From the IMG/VR virus record IMGVR_UViG_2585427789_000018: DNA of 5,080 nucleotides, one strand, 5' to 3'. The notes under the pieces were generated by a model. That model worked only from the letters and a program-made list of their open reading frames with translations, did no database searches and was not told where the DNA came from. The stretch is from a virus (taxonomy: Duplodnaviria; Heunggongvirae; Uroviricota; Caudoviricetes). This document shows, piece by piece, positions 520 through 5,080 of this stretch. The translations under genes were made by a program, and so were the position numbers. Numbering within the stretch: position 1 is the stretch's first letter; the number at the start of each line of letters is the position of its first letter.

Positions 520-978
520 ATGATGATGATTTTTGGCATGTTTGTGTTTGAGCTGAAAACGCTTCCGCATCAGCAGATCCAGCAGAGCAAAACATGGCGA
601 CATGTGAAAAATGAGCGCATTAACCGCTCTGCGGCCTGGCAGTATATTGGCGCAGGTGACGATCAGATCACGCTGTCCGGTCTGTTGTACCCGGAAATTA
701 CCGGTGGTGAGGTGTCACTGACACTGCTGAACACCCAGGCCTACACCGGATGTCCCTGGCCGCTGATTGATGGCACGGGGCAGATTTACGGAATGTACGT
801 GATTACAGGATTACAGACCACCCGCTCCGAGCTGGATCGTTACGGAAAGGCAAAAAAGATTGAGTTTTCCATCAGCTTTCAGCGGTGTGATGAGGATATG
901 AGAGAGCGGTTTCAGTCTGCTTCTGCGGGCGAACTGCTGAACGCGCTTAAAGACAAAATGCCTGTGGCTGCATTCTGA
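520..978 (+). CDS. Phage tail protein, P2 gpU-like
   Basis: 152-aa ORF starting ATGATGATG (MMMIFGMFVFELKTLP...), with an AGGAG Shine-Dalgarno at 507-511, 8 nt upstream. The N-terminus and size match my recollection of the P2 GpU family. It follows a tail-gene fragment in the same orientation. Confidence 0.8.
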   Translation: MMMIFGMFVFELKTLPHQQIQQSKTWRHVKNERINRSAAWQYIGAGDDQITLSGLLYPEITGGEVSLTLLNTQAYTGCPWPLIDGTGQIYGMYVITGLQTTRSELDRYGKAKKIEFSISFQRCDEDMRERFQSASAGELLNALKDKMPVAAF

Positions 979-987
979 ATAAAAAAA

Positions 988-1012
988 GAGGGAGTGTAAA
1001 AAGCACTCCCTT
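988..1012. terminator. GC-rich hairpin after the gpU-like gene, flanked by A7 upstream and TTA downstream
   Basis: Stem GGGAGTG (990-996) pairs with CACTCCC (1004-1010) around a 7-nt loop. A7 lies at 981-987 and only TTA follows on the plus strand, so the U-tract is better on the minus strand; it may act bidirectionally. Confidence 0.5.
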
Positions 1013-1103
1013 ATGGCCTTCATGGAAAAGAAGCAAAATGTTGTCAATACATTCTGACTATATATAAATCGCCCGATGATGGCAATGGTGATATTCTGGA
1101 AAT

Positions 1104-1127
1104 AAAAAAAGCCCTCATAAAGAGGGC
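1104..1127 (-). terminator. Intrinsic terminator oriented for minus-strand transcription
   Basis: Stem GCCCTC (1111-1116) pairs with GAGGGC (1122-1127) around a 5-nt loop. It is preceded on the plus strand by A7 (1104-1110), which gives a U7 tract after the hairpin on the minus strand. Confidence 0.5.
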
Positions 1128-1171
1128 AACATGCATTGTGTGAAGATTTAATGTTCTATGTTCCGGAAGGG

Positions 1172-1201
1172 ATTATATTAAGCGGGGATTGTCAATTGCA
1201 A
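1172..1201 (-). promoter_or_regulatory. Candidate sigma70 promoter on the minus strand (TTGCAA-N18-TATAAT)
   Basis: On the minus strand the -35 TTGCAA (plus 1196-1201) and -10 TATAAT (plus 1172-1177) are 18 nt apart. The predicted start near 1165 lies about 40-60 nt upstream of the minus-strand terminator at 1104-1127. The sequence is AT-rich, so a chance match is possible. Confidence 0.3.
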
Positions 1202-1223
1202 TATTTTAATTTGTTATTGCAAT
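1195..1223. promoter_or_regulatory. Two copies of the palindrome ATTGCAAT spaced 21 bp (candidate operator pair)
   Basis: ATTGCAAT occurs at 1195-1202 and 1216-1223, two helical turns apart, overlapping the -35 of the candidate minus-strand promoter. Confidence 0.3.
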
Positions 1224-1291
1224 TGCTGAAAATGTTTCTCGTGTTTTGATTGCCATGATTACAATTTTGTTTGTTACTGTATCTTTGCGGC

Positions 1292-1315
1292 AAAAAAAAG
1301 CCCGCACGGGGCGGG
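1292..1315 (-). terminator. Intrinsic terminator oriented for minus-strand transcription
   Basis: Stem CCCGC (1301-1305) pairs with GCGGG (1311-1315) around a 5-nt loop. It is preceded on the plus strand by A8 (1292-1299), which gives a U8 tract on the minus strand. Confidence 0.55.
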
Positions 1316-1377
1316 AAAAGAATGTTTGCATGTATAGAACACTACGGGATTATAAATAATTTCTGCGTTCTGAAAAG

Positions 1378-1396
1378 TCCTCCCTTTTAAGGAGGA
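1378..1396 (+). promoter_or_regulatory. Hairpin pairing an anti-SD-like UCCUCC with the Shine-Dalgarno GGAGGA
   Basis: TCCTCC (1378-1383) and GGAGGA (1391-1396) form a 6-bp stem around a 7-nt loop. The only strong SD upstream of the ATG at 1409 is inside this stem. Confidence 0.35.
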
Positions 1397-1408
1397 GAGA
1401 TCATACCG

Positions 1409-1459
1409 ATGTATTGTAATAACCTTCATCAATTCACGGAAGTGAAAGTCAACAACTGA
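1409..1459 (+). CDS. Hypothetical 16-aa ORF (MYCNNLHQFTEVKVNN)
   Basis: ATG at 1409 and TGA at 1457-1459. The SD AAGGAGGAG (1389-1397) lies 11 nt upstream and is sequestered in the hairpin. Not hydrophobic; coding status unproven. Confidence 0.15.
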   Translation: MYCNNLHQFTEVKVNN

Positions 1460-1468
1460 ACTTATTTT

Positions 1469-1552
1469 ATGTATACAATCCACTCCGCCAGTTTAATTCT
1501 GTTTTCATCTCTGATTATGAGTGGCGGTAATTTACACAGCCCGGAGTTTTAA
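1469..1552 (+). CDS. Hypothetical 27-aa ORF (MYTIHSASLILFSSLIMSGGNLHSPEF)
   Basis: ATG at 1469, 10 nt after the previous stop, with no own SD. Its TAA overlaps the next ATG as TAATG. It has a hydrophobic core. Confidence 0.15.
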   Translation: MYTIHSASLILFSSLIMSGGNLHSPEF

Positions 1553-1632
1553 TGTTGCCCGCTTTTATGATCTTTAAGCACACCATATTAATCGCCTGCA
1601 TATTACATCTGGTGCCATTTAAATACTTCTGA
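1552..1632 (+). CDS. Hypothetical 26-aa hydrophobic peptide (MLPAFMIFKHTILIACILHLVPFKYF)
   Basis: ATG at 1552 with GGAG (1543-1546) 5 nt upstream. The peptide is strongly hydrophobic and consistent with a single transmembrane helix. Its stop at 1630-1632 is in frame with, and immediately precedes, the degenerate gpU' remnant. Confidence 0.2.
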   Translation: MLPAFMIFKHTILIACILHLVPFKYF

Positions 1633-1640
1633 CGCTGGTT

Positions 1641-1760
1641 TGAAAATCTGGAGTTTACCGTCTGCTTTCAGTGGCGTGATGCGGGGGATGAATTTTAGTT
1701 TGTTTCTGCGGGCGAATTACTGAATACGATTAGAGATGAATGGTGAAGGCTGCATTCTGA
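1641..1760 (+). pseudogene. Degenerate second copy of the gpU-like gene 3' end
   Basis: Plus-strand 1651-1760 aligns by eye with 862-978 of the intact gene, sharing blocks TTCTGCGGGCGAA and GGCTGCATTCTGAA plus the A-tract and hairpin. Its frame reads ...ENLEFTVCFQWRDAGDEF (compare KKIEFSISFQRCDEDMRERF) and hits a premature TAG at 1696-1698. Confidence 0.55.
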
Positions 1761-2302
1761 ACAAAAAAACAGGGGCAAATCCCCCTGTTTCCTGCTACGT
1801 CAGCGGGGCGCTGTCTGTTGTTGTACCGCCTGCCGTCAGGGGCGGCAAATTCCGCACGGTGGAGACGTTGCAGGTGCAGGGGCTGGAATTTGAAGAGCAG
1901 GCCCGTGTGATTGAGCAGTTCACGCACAAATACAACGTCCAGCACATTGGTATCGACGTGACCGGCGGTAACGGTGAGGCAGTGTACCAGATAGTGCGGC
2001 GGTTCTGGCCTGCCGCCGTGCCGTACACGTTCACGCTGGCATCCAAACGCGCGCTTGTGCTGAAGATGCTGCAGATTATTCGTGCGGGGCGCTGGGAGTA
2101 TGACCGGGGCGAACGTGAGCTGGTCAGGGCATTCAACGCTGTGCGCAAGGCAAAAACGGCGGGCGGGGCAATAACGTATGAAACAGACCGCACACGCGGC
2201 GTAAACCACGGCGACCTCGCGTGGGCAACCATGCTTGCCGTCATTAACGAGCCGCTGGGCGATGAGGACGGTGCAACAGGAATGCGGGTGATTGAGTTCT
2301 GA
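1736..2302 (+). pseudogene. 5'-truncated large terminase subunit (P2 gpP-like), nuclease-domain fragment
   Basis: The 188-aa ORF contains HIGIDVTGGNGEAVYQIV and NHGDLAWATMLAVINEP near its C-terminus, which fits the RNase H-like nuclease domain of large terminases. It ends TGATG-overlapped with the portal start. Its first ~18 codons come from the gpU' remnant and terminator, so terminase homology begins near 1795; about 400 N-terminal residues (ATPase domain) are missing. Confidence 0.6.
1763..1790. terminator. Hairpin terminator homologous to the one after gpU (A7, hairpin, TTT)
   Basis: Stem CAGGGG (1770-1775) pairs with CCCCTG (1782-1787) around a 6-nt loop, flanked by A7 (1763-1769) and TTT (1788-1790). 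Confidence 0.5.
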
Positions 2303-3351
2303 TGAAAAAACAAAAACGAAAATATTCGCGCCGCGATGACGGCGTGGCGCTGGCAGAGGCACTGCGCCGCCAGCCGTCGTTAAGCGCCTTCTCGTTCGAC
2401 GGCCCTTACGATGCGCACGCACTCGACCTGCTGGATAACGCATACTGCCTGAGTAACGGCAGATACTACGAAACGCCCGTTGACTGGTACGGACTGGCGC
2501 GGGCATCCCGGCAGACCTCGTGGCACCAGTCGGCGCTGTACTTCAAGCGGAATGCCATACTGGGCTGCTTCATTCCGCACCGGCTGCTCTCCCGGCAGGC
2601 GTTCTCCGCCTTTGCGCTGGACTGGTTTGTCTTCGGGAATGCGTTTCTTGAACTGCGCACCAACAGGCTGGGCGGAAAACTGGAACTACGGCACGCGCTG
2701 GCAAAATACGTCCGTCGTGGTGTTGAGCCGGATGTGTACTGGTTTGTGCAGACGGGGGAGCAGGACCACGAGTTCCGTCAGGGGCGCGTCTGCCATGTGC
2801 TGAACCCCGACATCAACCAGGAGATGTACGGAATGCCGGAATATCTCGGTGGCCTGTTGTCTGCCAGTCTGTCGCACTCGGCAGATCGCTTCCGCAAACT
2901 CTACTATGACAACGGTTCACATGCAGGCTGCATCATTTACGTGGGGGCAGCACAGGTTGATCGCGAAAGTATGCAGGCTCTCGAAAGAGCGTTGCAGGGC
3001 GCAAGAGGCGGTGGGGCATTCAAGAACCTGCTACTCCAGGCACCGAACGGCGGGAAGGACGGTGTGCAAATCCTGCCATTCCAGCAGATCACCGCCCGGG
3101 ATGAGTTCATGAACGTCAAGGCGGCCTCCCGTGATGATGTGCTGGCCGCTCACCGTGTACCACCACAACTGATGGGCGCAATGCCCAGCGGGCAGGGTTC
3201 TTTTGGTGATGTGGAGAAGGCGGCCAGAGTGTTTGCGATCAACGAACTGATGCCGGTGATGGAGGCGATGAAGCACGTTAATGACTGGCTGGGCGAAGAG
3301 GTGATCCGTTTTAACCCTTACGCACTGCTGGATACCCCGCCCATATCCTGA
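2302..3351 (+). CDS. Phage portal protein, P2 gpQ-like
   Basis: 349-aa ORF, close to the ~344 aa of P2 Q. It is translationally coupled to the upstream terminase fragment through TGATG at 2300-2304, the expected terminase-then-portal order. Codon usage is consistent and all other frames are closed. Confidence 0.8.
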   Translation: MKKQKRKYSRRDDGVALAEALRRQPSLSAFSFDGPYDAHALDLLDNAYCLSNGRYYETPVDWYGLARASRQTSWHQSALYFKRNAILGCFIPHRLLSRQAFSAFALDWFVFGNAFLELRTNRLGGKLELRHALAKYVRRGVEPDVYWFVQTGEQDHEFRQGRVCHVLNPDINQEMYGMPEYLGGLLSASLSHSADRFRKLYYDNGSHAGCIIYVGAAQVDRESMQALERALQGARGGGAFKNLLLQAPNGGKDGVQILPFQQITARDEFMNVKAASRDDVLAAHRVPPQLMGAMPSGQGSFGDVEKAARVFAINELMPVMEAMKHVNDWLGEEVIRFNPYALLDTPPIS

Positions 3352-3377
3352 CGCGCTCCGCTTGTCTGCTGCTTCTC

Positions 3378-3401
3378 CGGGGCATAAAAATTTATGCCCC
3401 G
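3378..3401. other. Perfect 11-bp inverted repeat (CGGGGCATAAA-AA-TTTATGCCCCG) 27 nt after the portal stop
   Basis: Arms at 3378-3388 and 3391-3401. No T-tract follows on either strand, so it is not a canonical intrinsic terminator; it could be a transcript-end stability hairpin or a protein-binding palindrome. Confidence 0.5.
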
Positions 3402-3485
3402 ACTCACCAGCTCCGGTGTGTCACGCACCAGGCATCTCAGGGATCTACCAGGTTGAATAACCTGTCAGCACACGTCGCATCAAAG

Positions 3486-3512
3486 TGCATCACAGGCATG
3501 TGATGCATCAGC
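3486..3512. repeat. Cluster of TGCATCACA motifs and overlapping palindromes
   Basis: TGCATCACA occurs at 3486-3494, inverted at 3499-3507 and again directly at 3800-3808. The first two form a hairpin (GCATCACA-GGCA-TGTGATGC, 3487-3506), and the palindrome TGATGCATCA lies at 3502-3511. Confidence 0.4.
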
Positions 3513-3720
3513 CCATACTTCACCACACAACCAATAAAACATCGCGTCAGGGGCACAATCAGCAGCATTTCTGGCGATTTCTGAGGATGCTTTCAGACCC
3601 CAAATTGCGGGCTGTTCCCCCGGCACCTGCGCGCAACAAAAACGCGTTTTTTTGTGCATGCACGGATCCCTGACGGATCCAGCTGCCACGCGGGCCGGAA
3701 GGGTAAAAAGTCGTTCAAAA

Positions 3721-3750
3721 AAATTGTGCAAATTTGTGCACTTTTGTGCA
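3721..3750 (+). repeat. Three tandem 10-bp repeats with core TTGTGCA
   Basis: AAATTGTGCA, AATTTGTGCA and CTTTTGTGCA have cores at 3724-3730, 3734-3740 and 3744-3750, at an exact 10-bp period. A fourth core lies at 3652-3658. Confidence 0.5.
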
Positions 3751-3769
3751 GGTAAGCATGCCCATATAT

Positions 3770-3798
3770 TTGACCGTAGCTTGCCTTTGATGTAGTTT
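3770..3798 (+). promoter_or_regulatory. Candidate promoter (TTGACC-N17-TAGTTT) upstream of an inverted repeat and a strong RBS
   Basis: The -35-like TTGACC is at 3770-3775 and the -10-like TAGTTT at 3793-3798. It is followed by the inverted repeat AACCAC-AAAAC-GTGGTT (3811-3827) and the SD GAGGGGG (3839-3845). The -10 is weak. Confidence 0.25.
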
Positions 3799-3850
3799 AT
3801 GCATCACAAAAACCACAAAACGTGGTTATGATTTCTATGAGGGGGTTGAT

Positions 3851-3886
3851 ATGAAAAAAATGCATGATGAATTTGATGGTTTCTAA
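3851..3886 (+). CDS. Hypothetical 11-codon ORF (MKKMHDEFDGF) with a strong RBS
   Basis: ATG at 3851 lies 5 nt after GAGGGGG, and TAA at 3884-3886. It sits 37 bp before the IS186 end. It could be a leader peptide or the decayed start of a gene. Confidence 0.15.
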   Translation: MKKMHDEFDGF

Positions 3887-3922
3887 GCTACGTTGACCTC
3901 TAATGAGGCGGGGATTTGCTCC

Positions 3923-5080
3923 CATAAGCGCTAACTTAAGGGTTGAACCATCTGAAGAATGCGACGCCTCGGTGCCTCGTTAAGACGATGCCTCGCGTTC
4001 TTCAATTGCGTTTTGTAGGCTGTCAGGGATACTGTCCCACGAATGGCCACCTGTAAGCTCCAGATGACCATTTTTGTTATTCTCCACAACGAGTTAGTTC
4101 TTCTTTTCGGATCCGGCACTTCTGGGGGGGAAATCCAGCGATGGCTGGATTATGTCGTCAATTAAAAATGCGGCGAGTAGATTAGCAAATATCCACGCTT
4201 TCGCGAGTTCAGGTTCCTTTGCACGCAAAGCATCCAGGTGCAGCAAACTTTTGAGCCGCTTAAAAGCCAGTTCAATTTGCCATCGCAGACGGTAACAATC
4301 AGCCACTTGCTCTGCTGAATATTCATCTTCCGGTAATGATGTTAGCAATAGCACATGGCCCGCTGCTTCCAGCGTTTCCGCCTGAACTACTCGTCCTTTT
4401 CGACGATTCTCGCTGAGCAGTCGGGTTTTACTGATTAATGCTTTTTCGGGAGGAAGTGATACGGCAATGAGACGTGCCGGAAAGGGAGCTCCGGCTTTTT
4501 TATTACCTGAATTGCCTATCATTACAGTGGTTTCACCGTTCTTACCGCAATCCAGCCCGCGCAGAAAACCCATCATGTCAAAGCGCATTCCTTCTGCAGT
4601 TAACCAGCGCAATCCTCGCCAGTGAACCCGGACGATATAATCAGCTTCTCCAAAAGCAAGTGAGCGGATACATTCGGGACGCGAACCGAATCCCCGGTCA
4701 GCAATGCGTATCTCGTCTGCCGTTTGCGCAAATCGGTCCAGCCGTTCAGCGTCTCTGCTGTCGGTTAGCTCAAAATCAGTGAACTGACAGGTATGAGGAT
4801 CATATCCCATATGTAGTCGCCATTCAGCGCTGCCGCCCCCGGGCGCACTGATTGCTGTTCCATCGACAAGACGCAATCTCTTTCCGCTTGTACAACCCGT
4901 AACTGCGGCGCGTACAGCAAGTGTTTGTGCGGCAAGTATGCCAAACCAGTCGGCGGCATTCCGCAGCCGCTTCAGGAGAGCCACGTCAGATAATGTTGCA
5001 ACGTCATGGAGCTGAGCCCATGCAGTGACTTCACGTAATGACATCCCCCCGGGGCCGTAAGCCAGCCCCAGACGTAGCAG
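3923..5080 (-). mobile_element. IS186 (IS4 family), right-hand ~1.16 kb; the element continues past the window end
   Basis: The terminus at 3923 reads CATAAGCGCTAACTTAAGGGTTG, which matches my recollection of the IS186 terminal inverted repeat. The internal ORF matches IS186 transposase. The flanking target is G-rich (CGGGGATTTGCTCC), as IS186 prefers. Confidence 0.85.
4094..5080 (-). CDS. insL: IS186 transposase (InsL-like, IS4 family), partial; the N-terminal ~54 aa lie beyond the window
   Basis: The minus-strand frame is open from the window edge to the stop at 4094-4096. The translation (...GPGGMSLREVTAWAQLHDVATLSDVALLKRLRNAADWFG...IDDIIQPSLDFPPRSAGSEKKN) matches the IS186 transposase as I remember it. 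Confidence 0.85.
   Translation of the reverse strand: MLRLGLAYGPGGMSLREVTAWAQLHDVATLSDVALLKRLRNAADWFGILAAQTLAVRAAVTGCTSGKRLRLVDGTAISAPGGGSAEWRLHMGYDPHTCQFTDFELTDSRDAERLDRFAQTADEIRIADRGFGSRPECIRSLAFGEADYIVRVHWRGLRWLTAEGMRFDMMGFLRGLDCGKNGETTVMIGNSGNKKAGAPFPARLIAVSLPPEKALISKTRLLSENRRKGRVVQAETLEAAGHVLLLTSLPEDEYSAEQVADCYRLRWQIELAFKRLKSLLHLDALRAKEPELAKAWIFANLLAAFLIDDIIQPSLDFPPRSAGSEKKN

What the first reader, a model, noticed from the sequence alone, without database searches (positions are those of the whole stretch)
3352..3922. Portal-proximal 570-bp non-coding region packed with palindromes and helically phased repeats: candidate packaging (cos) or regulator-binding array
Between the portal stop and IS186 there is no convincing ORF, but there is a dense cluster of symmetric or repeated elements. 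These are a perfect 24-bp palindrome (3378-3401); TGCATCACA three times (3486, 3499 inverted, 3800); AAAAACGCGTTTTT (3638-3651); GTGCATGCAC (3654-3663); ACGGATCC twice 11 bp apart (3662-3680); TTGTGCA three times at exact 10-bp phasing (3724-3750) plus a fourth at 3652; and AACCAC-N5-GTGGTT (3811-3827). In P2-type phages the cohesive-end site lies just beyond Q. Phased short repeats next to a portal gene are what terminase small-subunit recognition sites look like in cos or pac regions. The array could instead be iterons or repressor operators.
Basis: partly seen in the sequence, partly recalled or inferred. Interest (0 to 1): 0.55.

Follow-up and report, generated by a model that had tools for sequence, protein, structure and literature searches.

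The report
Cos packaging site of P2-like prophage
About 170 bp of this stretch is the DNA-packaging (cos) signal of a decayed P2-family prophage; a cos site is expected at this position, but the comparison shows a phased TGCA repeat array, shared across the whole phage family, that probably guides the packaging enzyme.

Summary
The window is a deleted P88-type (P2-family) prophage of E. coli, identical to strain E100341.

1. 3378-3401 is a hairpin directly after portal gene Q. It is 11+2+11, not a perfect palindrome.
2. 3402-3584 is a variable spacer.
3. About 3585-3750 is a sharply bounded block present in 1157 of 5426 E. coli genomes. It is the only DNA that P88-like phages share with a portal-less, terminase-less satellite family.
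4. 3751-3922 is the leader of the downstream cargo genes. It ends in a terminator hairpin split by IS186.

The block has the layout of the mapped P2, 186 and P4 cos sites. A C-run 19-mer (3609-3629) is followed by a T-run plus TGCA box at +26/28 and three TGCA boxes at about +98, +108 and +118-121.

Best reading: this is the cos site, and the phased boxes are terminase small-subunit (gpM) recognition sites. That role is inferred. The ACGGATCC, GTGCATGCAC and TGCATCACA repeats are not conserved. The result is an ordinary feature in kind, but a diverged, undescribed cos type. Virion ends were not mapped.

The parts
2302..3351 (+). Portal gene (gpQ homologue), the upstream landmark
   Evidence: 349-aa ORF. 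It is 49% identical to P2 gpQ and annotated as phage portal protein.
3378..3401 (+). Hairpin directly after the Q stop codon (11-bp arms, 2 bases between). Same position as P2 tQ and 186 tW, but with no T-run.
   Evidence: -17.6 kcal/mol, z = -4.9. Conserved in P88, 569R5 and an O157 prophage. P2 tQ and 186 tW are annotated at the equivalent place.
3402..3584 (.). Variable Q-to-cos spacer ('type A'), containing the TGCATCACA-N4-TGTGATGCA hairpin at 3486-3507. Function unknown.
   Evidence: P88, 569R5 and O157 prophages carry unrelated sequence here. The same type A spacer occurs in an intact prophage of strain 135. Hairpin -14.7 kcal/mol.
3585..3608 (.). Q-side flank of cos, partly conserved
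   Evidence: Phage-satellite homology starts about 22-28 nt before the 19-mer. The window carries a diverged version of this flank.
3609..3629 (-). cosN-like C-run element. Minus strand reads CAGGTGCCGGGGGAACAGCCC. Predicted site of the staggered cut, placed to within about 2 nt.
   Evidence: 12-13 of 19 bases match the P2 cohesive end, in the same orientation relative to Q. It shares CGGGGGAAC with the SEN4 sticky end and aligns with the P2-like 19-mer of Klebsiella phage 3LV2017. It is invariant in 76 of 76 scored IMG/VR loci.
3630..3646 (.). G+C-rich / A-run spacer between the 19-mer and the T-run; 19 nt when counted from 3628.
   Evidence: A 19-nt spacer is seen in P2, P4, 186, SEN4, 3LV2017 and the P88-likes. 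The sequence itself is not conserved.
3647..3658 (+). T-run plus proximal box (TTTTTTTGTGCA); TGCA at +28
   Evidence: Invariant in alignment A1. It corresponds to TTTTAATGCA inside the 55-bp P2-P4 core. TGCA is at +26 in 96% of P2-type cos loci.
3659..3716 (.). Middle spacer with ACGGATCC x2 (3662-3680) and GGGCCGGAAGGG (3692-3703)
   Evidence: The length is conserved and the sequence only partly. The GGATCC pair is absent from the satellite and from phiT5282H.
3717..3750 (+). A-run plus three TTGTGCA boxes, 10 bp apart (TGCA at +100, +110, +120). Candidate terminase small-subunit array and the end of the cos block.
   Evidence: Same offsets as P2, P4 and 186 (+98, +108, +120/121). TGCA is at +98 in 75% and +108 in 62% of 73 P2-type cos loci. 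Conservation collapses after 3750, with 46 different right flanks.
3751..3904 (+). Leader of the DUF4760 cargo module: weak promoter-like sites, hairpin 3811-3827, 11-codon ORF 3851-3886 (MKKMHDEFDGF) with a GAGGGGG ribosome-binding site
   Evidence: Conserved only in the E. coli genomes that match it (about 300 at 95-99% identity; DUF4760 cargo seen in those inspected). Promoter scan no better than chance.
3905..3922 (+). Left half of an intrinsic-terminator hairpin (GAGGCGGGGATTTGCTCCCCGCC-T6 when intact), split by IS186. Target-site duplication GGATTTGCTCC = 3912-3922.
   Evidence: The intact hairpin has 10 pairs plus a T-run and folds at -20.3 kcal/mol in an O157 prophage, 569R5 and EC0026B. 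Junctions.
3923..5080 (-). IS186/IS421 (transposase on the minus strand), running off the window
   Evidence: Terminal repeat CATAAGCGCTAACTTAAGGGTTG. Annotated as IS4-like IS421 family transposase.

Best explanation
Window 3585-3750 is the cos (cohesive-end, packaging) site of a P88-type member of the P2 phage family. It survives intact inside a prophage that has lost its head genes, lysis genes and most tail-fibre genes.

Proposed mechanism:
- The phage terminase (gpM small subunit plus gpP large subunit) recognises the block.
- It makes a staggered cut in the C-run element at 3609-3629, the counterpart of the 19-nt P2 cohesive end.
- Recognition uses the side of the cut away from Q: a T-run/GTGCA box 26-28 bp from the cut, and three GTGCA boxes one helical turn apart at about +100, +110 and +120. 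These would present repeated contacts on one face of the DNA to an oligomeric gpM.

Shown here:
- position between Q and the cargo hotspot;
- layout and offsets shared with the mapped P2, 186 and P4 cos sites;
- strong conservation with sharp borders;
- sharing with a satellite.

Inferred: the exact cut positions, and that gpM is what binds the boxes.

The other parts of the 571 bp are a post-Q hairpin, a variable spacer, and the transcribed leader and terminator of the neighbouring cargo genes.
For: Context. The element is a P2-like prophage between copA and glsA, in the order gpP' - gpQ - this region - IS186 - DUF4760 cargo - parM - gpA' - repressor - integrase. Rousset et al. place the P2 cos between gpQ and gpA, next to a cargo hotspot.

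Conservation.
- The block 3607-3750/51 is present in 1157 of 5426 E. coli genomes with the same ends.
- It also occurs in P88, 569R5, phiSM, Enterobacter phiT5282H (75% identity) and, in part, Klebsiella 3LV2017.
- In 74 unique IMG/VR copies, conservation falls from above 90% to about 35% directly after 3750, with 46 different right flanks.

Satellite. An element with integrase, toprim primase, an Icd-like protein, an Ogr/Delta protein and a P2-family capsid gene, but no portal or terminase, carries the block at 77% identity. The block (L008 5979-6145) is the only part of a 741-bp satellite segment that matches the P88-like prophages. The satellite is in at least 52 genomes. This mirrors P2 and P4, whose only shared DNA is cos.

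Layout. The cohesive ends of P2 and 186 are annotated in their records. Anchoring on the C-run 19-mer gives TGCA at:
- +26, +98, +108 and +120/121 in P2, P4 and 186;
- +26, +34, +98 and +108 in SEN4;
- +35, +98, +108 and +118 in 3LV2017;
- +28, +100, +110 and +120 in all P88-likes, the satellite and the window.

Among 73 unique P2-type cos loci (59 clusters), TGCA occurs at +26 in 96%, +98 in 75% and +108 in 62%, in otherwise unrelated sequence.

Intermediate 19-mers link P2 to the window: 3LV2017 GGCGAGGCGGGGGAGCAAG, SEN4 GGCGAGGCGGGGGAACGAG, window GGTGCCGGGGGAACAGCCC.

The small terminase of a relative carrying the same cos block (phage 500465-2) is only 37% identical to P2 gpM, which fits a changed box (GTGCA instead of ATGCA).
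Against: - No physical ends were mapped, and the SEN4 ends were themselves assigned by analogy with P2.
- The only linear record that ends inside the block, P88_4B11, breaks at 3705|3706, not at the C-run. That record also carries a 5-nt deletion plus a T-to-C change in the left part of the C-run element.
- The block has no significant local alignment to the P2 cos region: score 21 against a shuffle mean of 20. The 12-13/19 match to the P2 19-mer is no better than several chance hits elsewhere in a 37-kb genome. The case therefore rests on layout, offsets and intermediates.
- Binding of gpM to the boxes has not been shown for any P2-family phage in the papers I could read.
- In P2 the third box overlaps the -35 region of the old promoter.
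- This copy sits in a defective prophage, so it has no current role for its own element.
Confidence: 0.8

Rival explanations
1. The block is the cos region, but the cut lies elsewhere in it, for example at the G+C-rich CACGCGGGCCGGAAGGGTA (3687-3705) where the P88_4B11 record begins. The C-run element would then be a recognition element and not the cleavage site.
For: The linear GenBank record LR595891 starts and ends at the equivalent of 3705|3706. The stretch is G+C-rich and flanked by A/T runs. P88_4B11 appears to tolerate a 5-nt deletion in the C-run element.
Against: This stretch varies between relatives: GGAAGTAC in ETEC-2264, GGATGGGC in the satellite. The C-run is invariant. In P2, P4 and 186 the mapped ends are at the C-run, with the boxes at the same offsets. 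The start of an assembled record can be arbitrary.
Confidence: 0.12
2. The phased boxes are a promoter or operator array controlling the adjacent cargo (lysogenic-conversion or defence) genes, bound by a phage or host regulator and not by terminase.
For: The boxes sit exactly at the border of the cargo hotspot. In P2 the third box (TTGAATGCA) overlaps the -35 region upstream of the mapped old-tin transcript starts.
Against: The boxes are the same in front of 46 unrelated right flanks, including cargo on the opposite strand (P88, E2348/69). They keep fixed offsets from the cohesive-end 19-mer in P2, 186, P4 and the satellites. The promoter scan finds nothing above chance.
Confidence: 0.06
3. 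The repeats are iterons of a replication origin, or immunity-repressor operators. These were the reader's alternatives.
For: Short direct repeats at helical phasing are typical of iterons and operators.
Against: The P2 and 186 origins lie inside gene A, and the operators lie between the repressor gene and cox or apl. Here the repressor gene is about 5 kb away. The satellite carries its own separate GGTTACA-type repeat cluster (L008 about 6390-6680) next to its primase and integrase genes, yet keeps the TTGTGCA boxes.
Confidence: 0.02

Closest known systems
cos site of coliphages P2, 186 and satellite P4 (19-nt 5' cohesive ends GGCGAGGCGGGGAAAGCAC / GGCGTGGCGGGGAAAGCAT; 55-bp core of Ziermann & Calendar 1990)
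   Same: - Position just beyond the portal gene, after a post-portal hairpin and before the cargo hotspot.
- A C-run 19-mer in the same orientation.
- A 19-nt spacer, then a T-run plus (A/G)TGCA box.
- Three further TGCA boxes about 10 bp apart at the same offsets.
- Shared between helper phage and satellite.
   Different: - The 19-mer matches at only 12-13 of 19 positions.
- The boxes read TTGTGCA instead of (A/T)ATGCA.
- There is no significant local alignment to the P2 cos region.
- All box offsets are 2 nt larger with the anchor used.
- The Q-to-cos distance is about 257 bp against 167 in P2.
- The cognate gpM is 37% identical, so packaging specificity probably differs.
Predicted cos sites of other Peduoviridae (Salmonella SEN4/5, Klebsiella 3LV2017, Ralstonia phiRSA1, Stenotrophomonas Smp131)
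   Same: SEN4 and 3LV2017 show the same layout with GTGCA-type boxes, and their 19-mers are intermediate between P2 and the window. Published papers assign such sites by analogy with P2.
   Different: Those papers discuss only the 19-mer and the 55-bp core. The distal boxes are not mentioned in the texts I could read.
Lambda cos (cosQ-cosN-cosB, with R sites for gpNu1 and an IHF site)
   Same: It works alike in outline: a nicking site with a flanking array of short repeats for the small terminase subunit, separated by a spacer (from established knowledge of lambda).
   Different: No sequence relationship. Lambda has 12-nt ends and 16-bp R sites. On which end of the packaged DNA the P2-family boxes lie relative to packaging direction was not examined.
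P2 / P4 cos-adjacent defence hotspot (Rousset et al. 2022, PMC9122126)
   Same: The block ends exactly where the variable cargo begins. The cargo here is DUF4760 plus a 280-aa protein.
   Different: The hotspot is the neighbour of the finding, not the finding itself. This cargo pair does not appear in the main text of that paper.

Membership tests
P2-family (Peduoviridae) cos site, broad sense | Lies between the 3' end of portal gene Q and the variable region that precedes replication gene A | tested here: met
   Gene order. P2 and 186 maps. Statement in PMC9122126.
P2-family (Peduoviridae) cos site, broad sense | G+C-rich 19-mer followed by a spacer, a T-run/TGCA box and phased distal TGCA boxes at fixed offsets | tested here: met
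   Offsets are +28, +100, +110 and +120 against +26, +98, +108 and +120/121 in P2, P4 and 186. Family-wide frequencies.
P2-family (Peduoviridae) cos site, broad sense | Carried by satellites that depend on the helper phage's terminase | tested here: met
   A portal-less, terminase-less element carries the block at 77% identity, and the block is the only part of the tested 741-bp satellite segment shared with the phages. Dependence on a helper is inferred from gene content.
P2-family (Peduoviridae) cos site, broad sense | Virion DNA has 5'-protruding cohesive ends generated at this site by terminase | not testable with these tools
   No read data or virion DNA available. The only record ending inside the block (LR595891) breaks at 3705|3706.
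P2/186/P4 cos specificity group (55-bp core) | Near-identity to the 19-nt cohesive end and the 55-bp core sequence | tested here: not met
   12-13 of 19 for the 19-mer. No P2 19-mer with 5 or fewer mismatches at the cos position in P88-like genomes. Local alignment no better than shuffles. P2 and P4 align over the full 55 bp.
Replication iterons / origin | Repeats adjacent to, or inside, the initiator gene, and specific to one replicon | tested here: not met
   The block is separated from gpA by cargo and par genes. The same boxes occur in elements with different replication genes: gpA phages and the toprim-primase satellite.
IS186 insertion hot spot (G-run / A+T core / C-run target with a 10-11 bp duplication; consensus recalled from SaiSree et al. 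2001, not re-read) | Target of the form GGGG-N-CCCC with a duplication of about 11 bp, used repeatedly | tested here: met
   The target is GGGGATTTGCTCCCC and the duplication is GGATTTGCTCC. The site is empty in EC0026B and carries IS186 in either orientation at identical junctions in H1827/12 and E100341.

The most novel reading that the evidence does not exclude
The helically phased TGCA boxes, one at +26 and three at about +98, +108 and +118-121 from the cohesive-end 19-mer, are the recognition array of the P2-family small terminase gpM. This array, equivalent to lambda cosB, has not been defined in the papers I could read.

The array lies mostly outside the 55-bp 'core' that the literature treats as the cos site. 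That would explain why longer flanks raised P4-cosmid transduction more than 1000-fold (PMC9594776).

The array also comes in at least two specificity types, ATGCA in P2/186/P4 and GTGCA in P88-like phages. The types track gpM divergence, and each appears to be used by its own satellites. The P88 type is used by a satellite family, in at least 52 E. coli genomes, that carries its own P2-family capsid gene.
Probability: 0.45. Interest if true: 0.55.

Novelty: new member of a known kind. Interest (0 to 1): 0.38.

Why it matters
A cos site beside the portal gene of a P2-like prophage is expected, so the basic call is unremarkable. The comparison adds three useful things.

- **A defined P88-type cos.** It is a block of about 165 bp with sharp borders, present in about a fifth of complete E. 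coli genomes. It can be used to find the cargo-hotspot boundary and to build cosmids for this phage group.
- **A testable model of terminase recognition.** A conserved TGCA box array at fixed offsets gives a concrete picture of how P2-family terminase recognises DNA. It also suggests why the 55-bp core alone packages poorly.
- **A helper-satellite prediction.** Satellites sharing the P88-type block point to helper-satellite pairs beyond P2 and P4.

Tried and rejected
- **Local alignment to the circularised P2 cos junction,** both orientations: nothing above shuffles.
- **Scan for the P2 19-mer** in P88-like genomes and the window: only matches with 5-6 mismatches, no better than chance when taken alone.
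- **Record starts as evidence for physical ends.** Phage 500465-2 is a prophage prediction that includes host genes, so its start is meaningless. The P88_4B11 ends fall at 3705|3706, but without any terminal repeat or supporting paper.
- **Rfam** at E <= 1 on the window and an intact relative: no relevant hit.
- **Promoter scan:** one 9/12 match, equal to chance. TTGACC-17-TAGTTT (3770-3798), seen by eye, fails the scan criteria.
- **Full-text search for the P88-type 19-mer:** no paper. Ziermann & Calendar 1990 and the Christie & Calendar review are not held, so I could not check whether the distal boxes were described there.
- **Coding potential of 3402-3750:** only overlapping ORFs of 43-83 aa that run through the cos block. 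None is annotated by PGAP in any of the 20 listed records.
- **PADLOC on the cargo proteins:** only a weak Csx27-like match.

Full report
**Where the window comes from.** The 571 bp match nine E. coli chromosomes at 100% identity. The window is identical, with 0 mismatches over 852-5080, to strain E100341. The surrounding annotation shows a P2-family prophage between copA and glsA. Its order is ogr, D, the tail-sheath-to-gpU tail genes, a truncated large-terminase gene, portal gene Q (window 2302-3351; 49% identical to P2 gpQ), the finding, IS186, a DUF4760 gene plus a 280-aa gene, parM and its partner, a truncated gpA, a repressor-like gene and the integrase. Head, lysis and baseplate genes are missing, so the prophage is defective. 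The closest phages are P88-type Peduoviridae: P88, vB_EcoM-569R5, phiSM and PhiR44_2.

**The observation.** All listed repeats are present. The exception is the '24-bp perfect palindrome', which is 11+2+11. Four copies of TTGTGCA in 571 bp is unusual: 21 of 2000 shuffles give any 7-mer four times. No gene is annotated under the stretch in any of the 20 E. coli records listed, and Rfam finds nothing.

**The stretch is four features, not one.** Relatives divide it as follows.

- **Post-Q hairpin (3378-3401).** It follows the Q stop in all P88-likes, where P2 and 186 have tQ and tW. It is stable (-17.6 kcal/mol) but has no T-run.
- **Variable spacer (3402-3584).** P88, 569R5 and O157 prophages carry unrelated DNA here. 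In 569R5 and ETEC-2264 an extra 175-aa gene also sits between Q and the hairpin. The window's version recurs in an intact prophage of strain 135.
- **Conserved block (3607-3750/51).** It is found with the same end points in 1157 of 5426 E. coli genomes. It also occurs in Citrobacter and Enterobacter phages and, in part, in Klebsiella phages. In 74 unique IMG/VR copies, conservation drops from above 90% to about 35% at 3751, with 46 different continuations. This is the border of the cargo hotspot that Rousset et al. describe next to the P2 cos.
- **Cargo leader (3751-3922).** It travels with the DUF4760 cargo. It holds a small hairpin, an 11-codon ORF with a strong ribosome-binding site, and an intrinsic terminator (GAGGCGGGGATTTGCTCCCCGCC-T6; 10 pairs, -20.3 kcal/mol). 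In the window IS186 has split this terminator.

**Why the block is cos.**

- *No direct similarity to P2.* There is no BLAST-level similarity to the P2 cos region, and the P2 19-mer is absent from P88-like genomes.
- *Intermediates.* Klebsiella phage 3LV2017 has a clearly P2-like 19-mer (rc GGCGAGGCGGGGGAGCAAG) where the window has GGGCTGTTCCCCCGGCACC, followed by the same TGCGCGC and the same boxes. Salmonella phage SEN4, whose record starts at the sticky end its authors report (GGCGAGGCGGGGGAACGAG), continues across the junction with the same layout. It shares CGGGGGAAC with the window.
- *Same offsets.* Measured from the end of the 19-mer, TGCA lies at +26, +98, +108 and +120/121 in P2, P4 and 186, whose cohesive ends are experimentally known and annotated in the P2 and 186 records. 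It lies at +28, +100, +110 and +120 in every P88-like phage, the satellite and the window. My rough estimate for four TGCA tetramers falling at prescribed offsets by chance, allowing a common shift, is of the order of 1e-8.
- *Family-wide feature.* In 73 unique P2-type cos loci from IMG/VR (59 clusters), TGCA is at +26 in 96%, +32 in 84%, +98 in 75%, +108 in 62% and +117/121 in 30-44%. The sequence around the boxes is otherwise unrelated.
- *Satellite.* An element with integrase, toprim primase, an Icd-like protein, an Ogr/Delta protein and a P2-family capsid gene, but no portal or terminase, carries the block at 77% identity. It is present in at least 52 genomes. The block, from about 25 nt before the 19-mer to the third box, is the only part of the tested 741-bp satellite segment that matches P88-like prophages. 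P2 and P4 behave the same way: they share only the 55-bp cos core.

- *Not conserved:* the ACGGATCC pair, the palindromic reading of AAAAACGCGTTTTT (only the A-run and T-run persist), GTGCATGCAC (usually GTGCACGCAC), and the 3800 copy of TGCATCACA.

**Mechanism.**

- *Shown:* location, layout, conservation and sharing with a satellite.
- *Inferred from established P2 biology:* terminase (gpM plus gpP) makes staggered nicks 19 nt apart at the G+C-rich element, giving 5' cohesive ends.
- *Inferred from the layout:* the boxes are the small-subunit recognition sites. Three boxes 10 bp apart lie on one face of the helix, and the proximal box is about seven turns from the first distal box. This suits an oligomeric binder, possibly with bending of the G+C-rich middle spacer, as in lambda cosB.

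The small terminase of a relative carrying the same cos block (phage 500465-2) is only 37% identical to P2 gpM. This fits a change from ATGCA to GTGCA. The window's own copy can no longer serve its prophage, but a P88-like phage in the same cell could still recognise it.

**Caveats.**

- Ends were not mapped.
- The linear record of P88_4B11 breaks at 3705|3706 and carries a 5-nt deletion in the left part of the C-run element. I treat the break as an arbitrary or assembly-related start, but it is the main evidence against my placement of the cut.
- With the anchor used, the P88-type offsets are 2 nt larger than in P2. The 19-mer may therefore be 3611-3629 and not 3609-3627.
- I could not read Ziermann & Calendar 1990. 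The open papers I read mention only the 19-mer and the 55-bp core. One of them reports, without explanation, that longer flanks improve P4-cosmid transduction more than 1000-fold.

**Verdict.** This is a real feature, correctly suspected to be cos. In kind it is ordinary: a new member, of a diverged specificity type, of the P2-family cos sites. Interest is modest. It is raised somewhat by the family-wide box array and by the satellites that share the P88-type block.

Noticed in passing
window 3905-3922 and 3923-5080; L001 12546-13930; L016 3046-4430; L017 3046-3090: The terminator hairpin GGCGGGGATTTGCTCCCCGCC is a repeatedly used IS186 target. In otherwise identical prophage remnants the site is empty (EC0026B), carries IS186 with the transposase on + (H1827/12), or carries it on - (E100341 and the window). 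The junctions and the 11-bp duplication GGATTTGCTCC are identical in both orientations. This means either two independent insertions at exactly the same position or an inversion in place.
   Followed up: partly
L008 (NZ_CP104500 4145740-4157884), about 3140-12140; cos block at 5979-6145: A satellite-like element next to hpt encodes integrase, an 889-aa toprim primase, an Icd-like protein, a 60-aa Ogr/Delta protein and its own P2-family major capsid homologue (423 aa with an N-terminal extension of about 130 aa). It has no portal or terminase. It carries the P88-type cos and a separate GGTTACA-type repeat cluster (about 6390-6680). It is present in at least 52 complete E. coli genomes. I did not check whether this type is already classified.
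   Followed up: partly
L004 (P2) 33450-33550; L012 (P4) 11500-11600; L015 (186) right end; IMG/VR loci L141-L220: The distal TGCA boxes at +98, +108 and about +120 lie outside the 55-bp P2-P4 core. They are nevertheless conserved in position across 59 clusters of P2-type cos loci. In P2 the third box overlaps the -35 region of the old-tin promoter.
   Followed up: yes
window 3751-3922 plus L001 13947-15326: The cargo module at the hotspot is a DUF4760 protein plus a 280-aa protein with a weak Csx27-like PADLOC match (E = 1e-5). It is preceded by an 11-codon ORF (MKKMHDEFDGF; H is Y in relatives) and an intrinsic terminator only 12 bp before the DUF4760 start. This looks like an attenuator-type leader. 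The segment matches about 300 E. coli genomes at 95-99% identity, including O157:H7 strains.
   Followed up: partly
window 854-992 versus 1643-1774, and 979-1640: A decayed second copy of the 3' end of the gpU-like tail gene, with its terminator, lies at 1643-1774. It is joined directly to the middle of the large-terminase gene at about 1736. The two copies are separated by a 660-bp A+T-rich segment (37% G+C) with no long ORF. This marks the deletion that removed the head, lysis and baseplate genes.
   Followed up: partly
L007 (LR595891, P88_4B11) 75-100 and both record ends: This plaque-isolated P88-like phage record has a 5-nt deletion and a T-to-C change in the left part of the C-run element (gaaacCTGTCCCCCCGTCACC against gaaacgcgggCTGTTCCCCCGTCACC). 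Its linear record begins 80-100 bp away, inside the cos block. This could be an assembly artefact at the physical ends or a tolerated variant.
   Followed up: no
L002 3401-3925; L019 594-1118: The Q-to-cos interval is itself variable. Some P88-like prophages carry a 175-aa gene of unknown function on the opposite strand between Q and the post-Q hairpin, and the last ~30 bp of Q with its downstream flank recurs before that hairpin.
   Followed up: no
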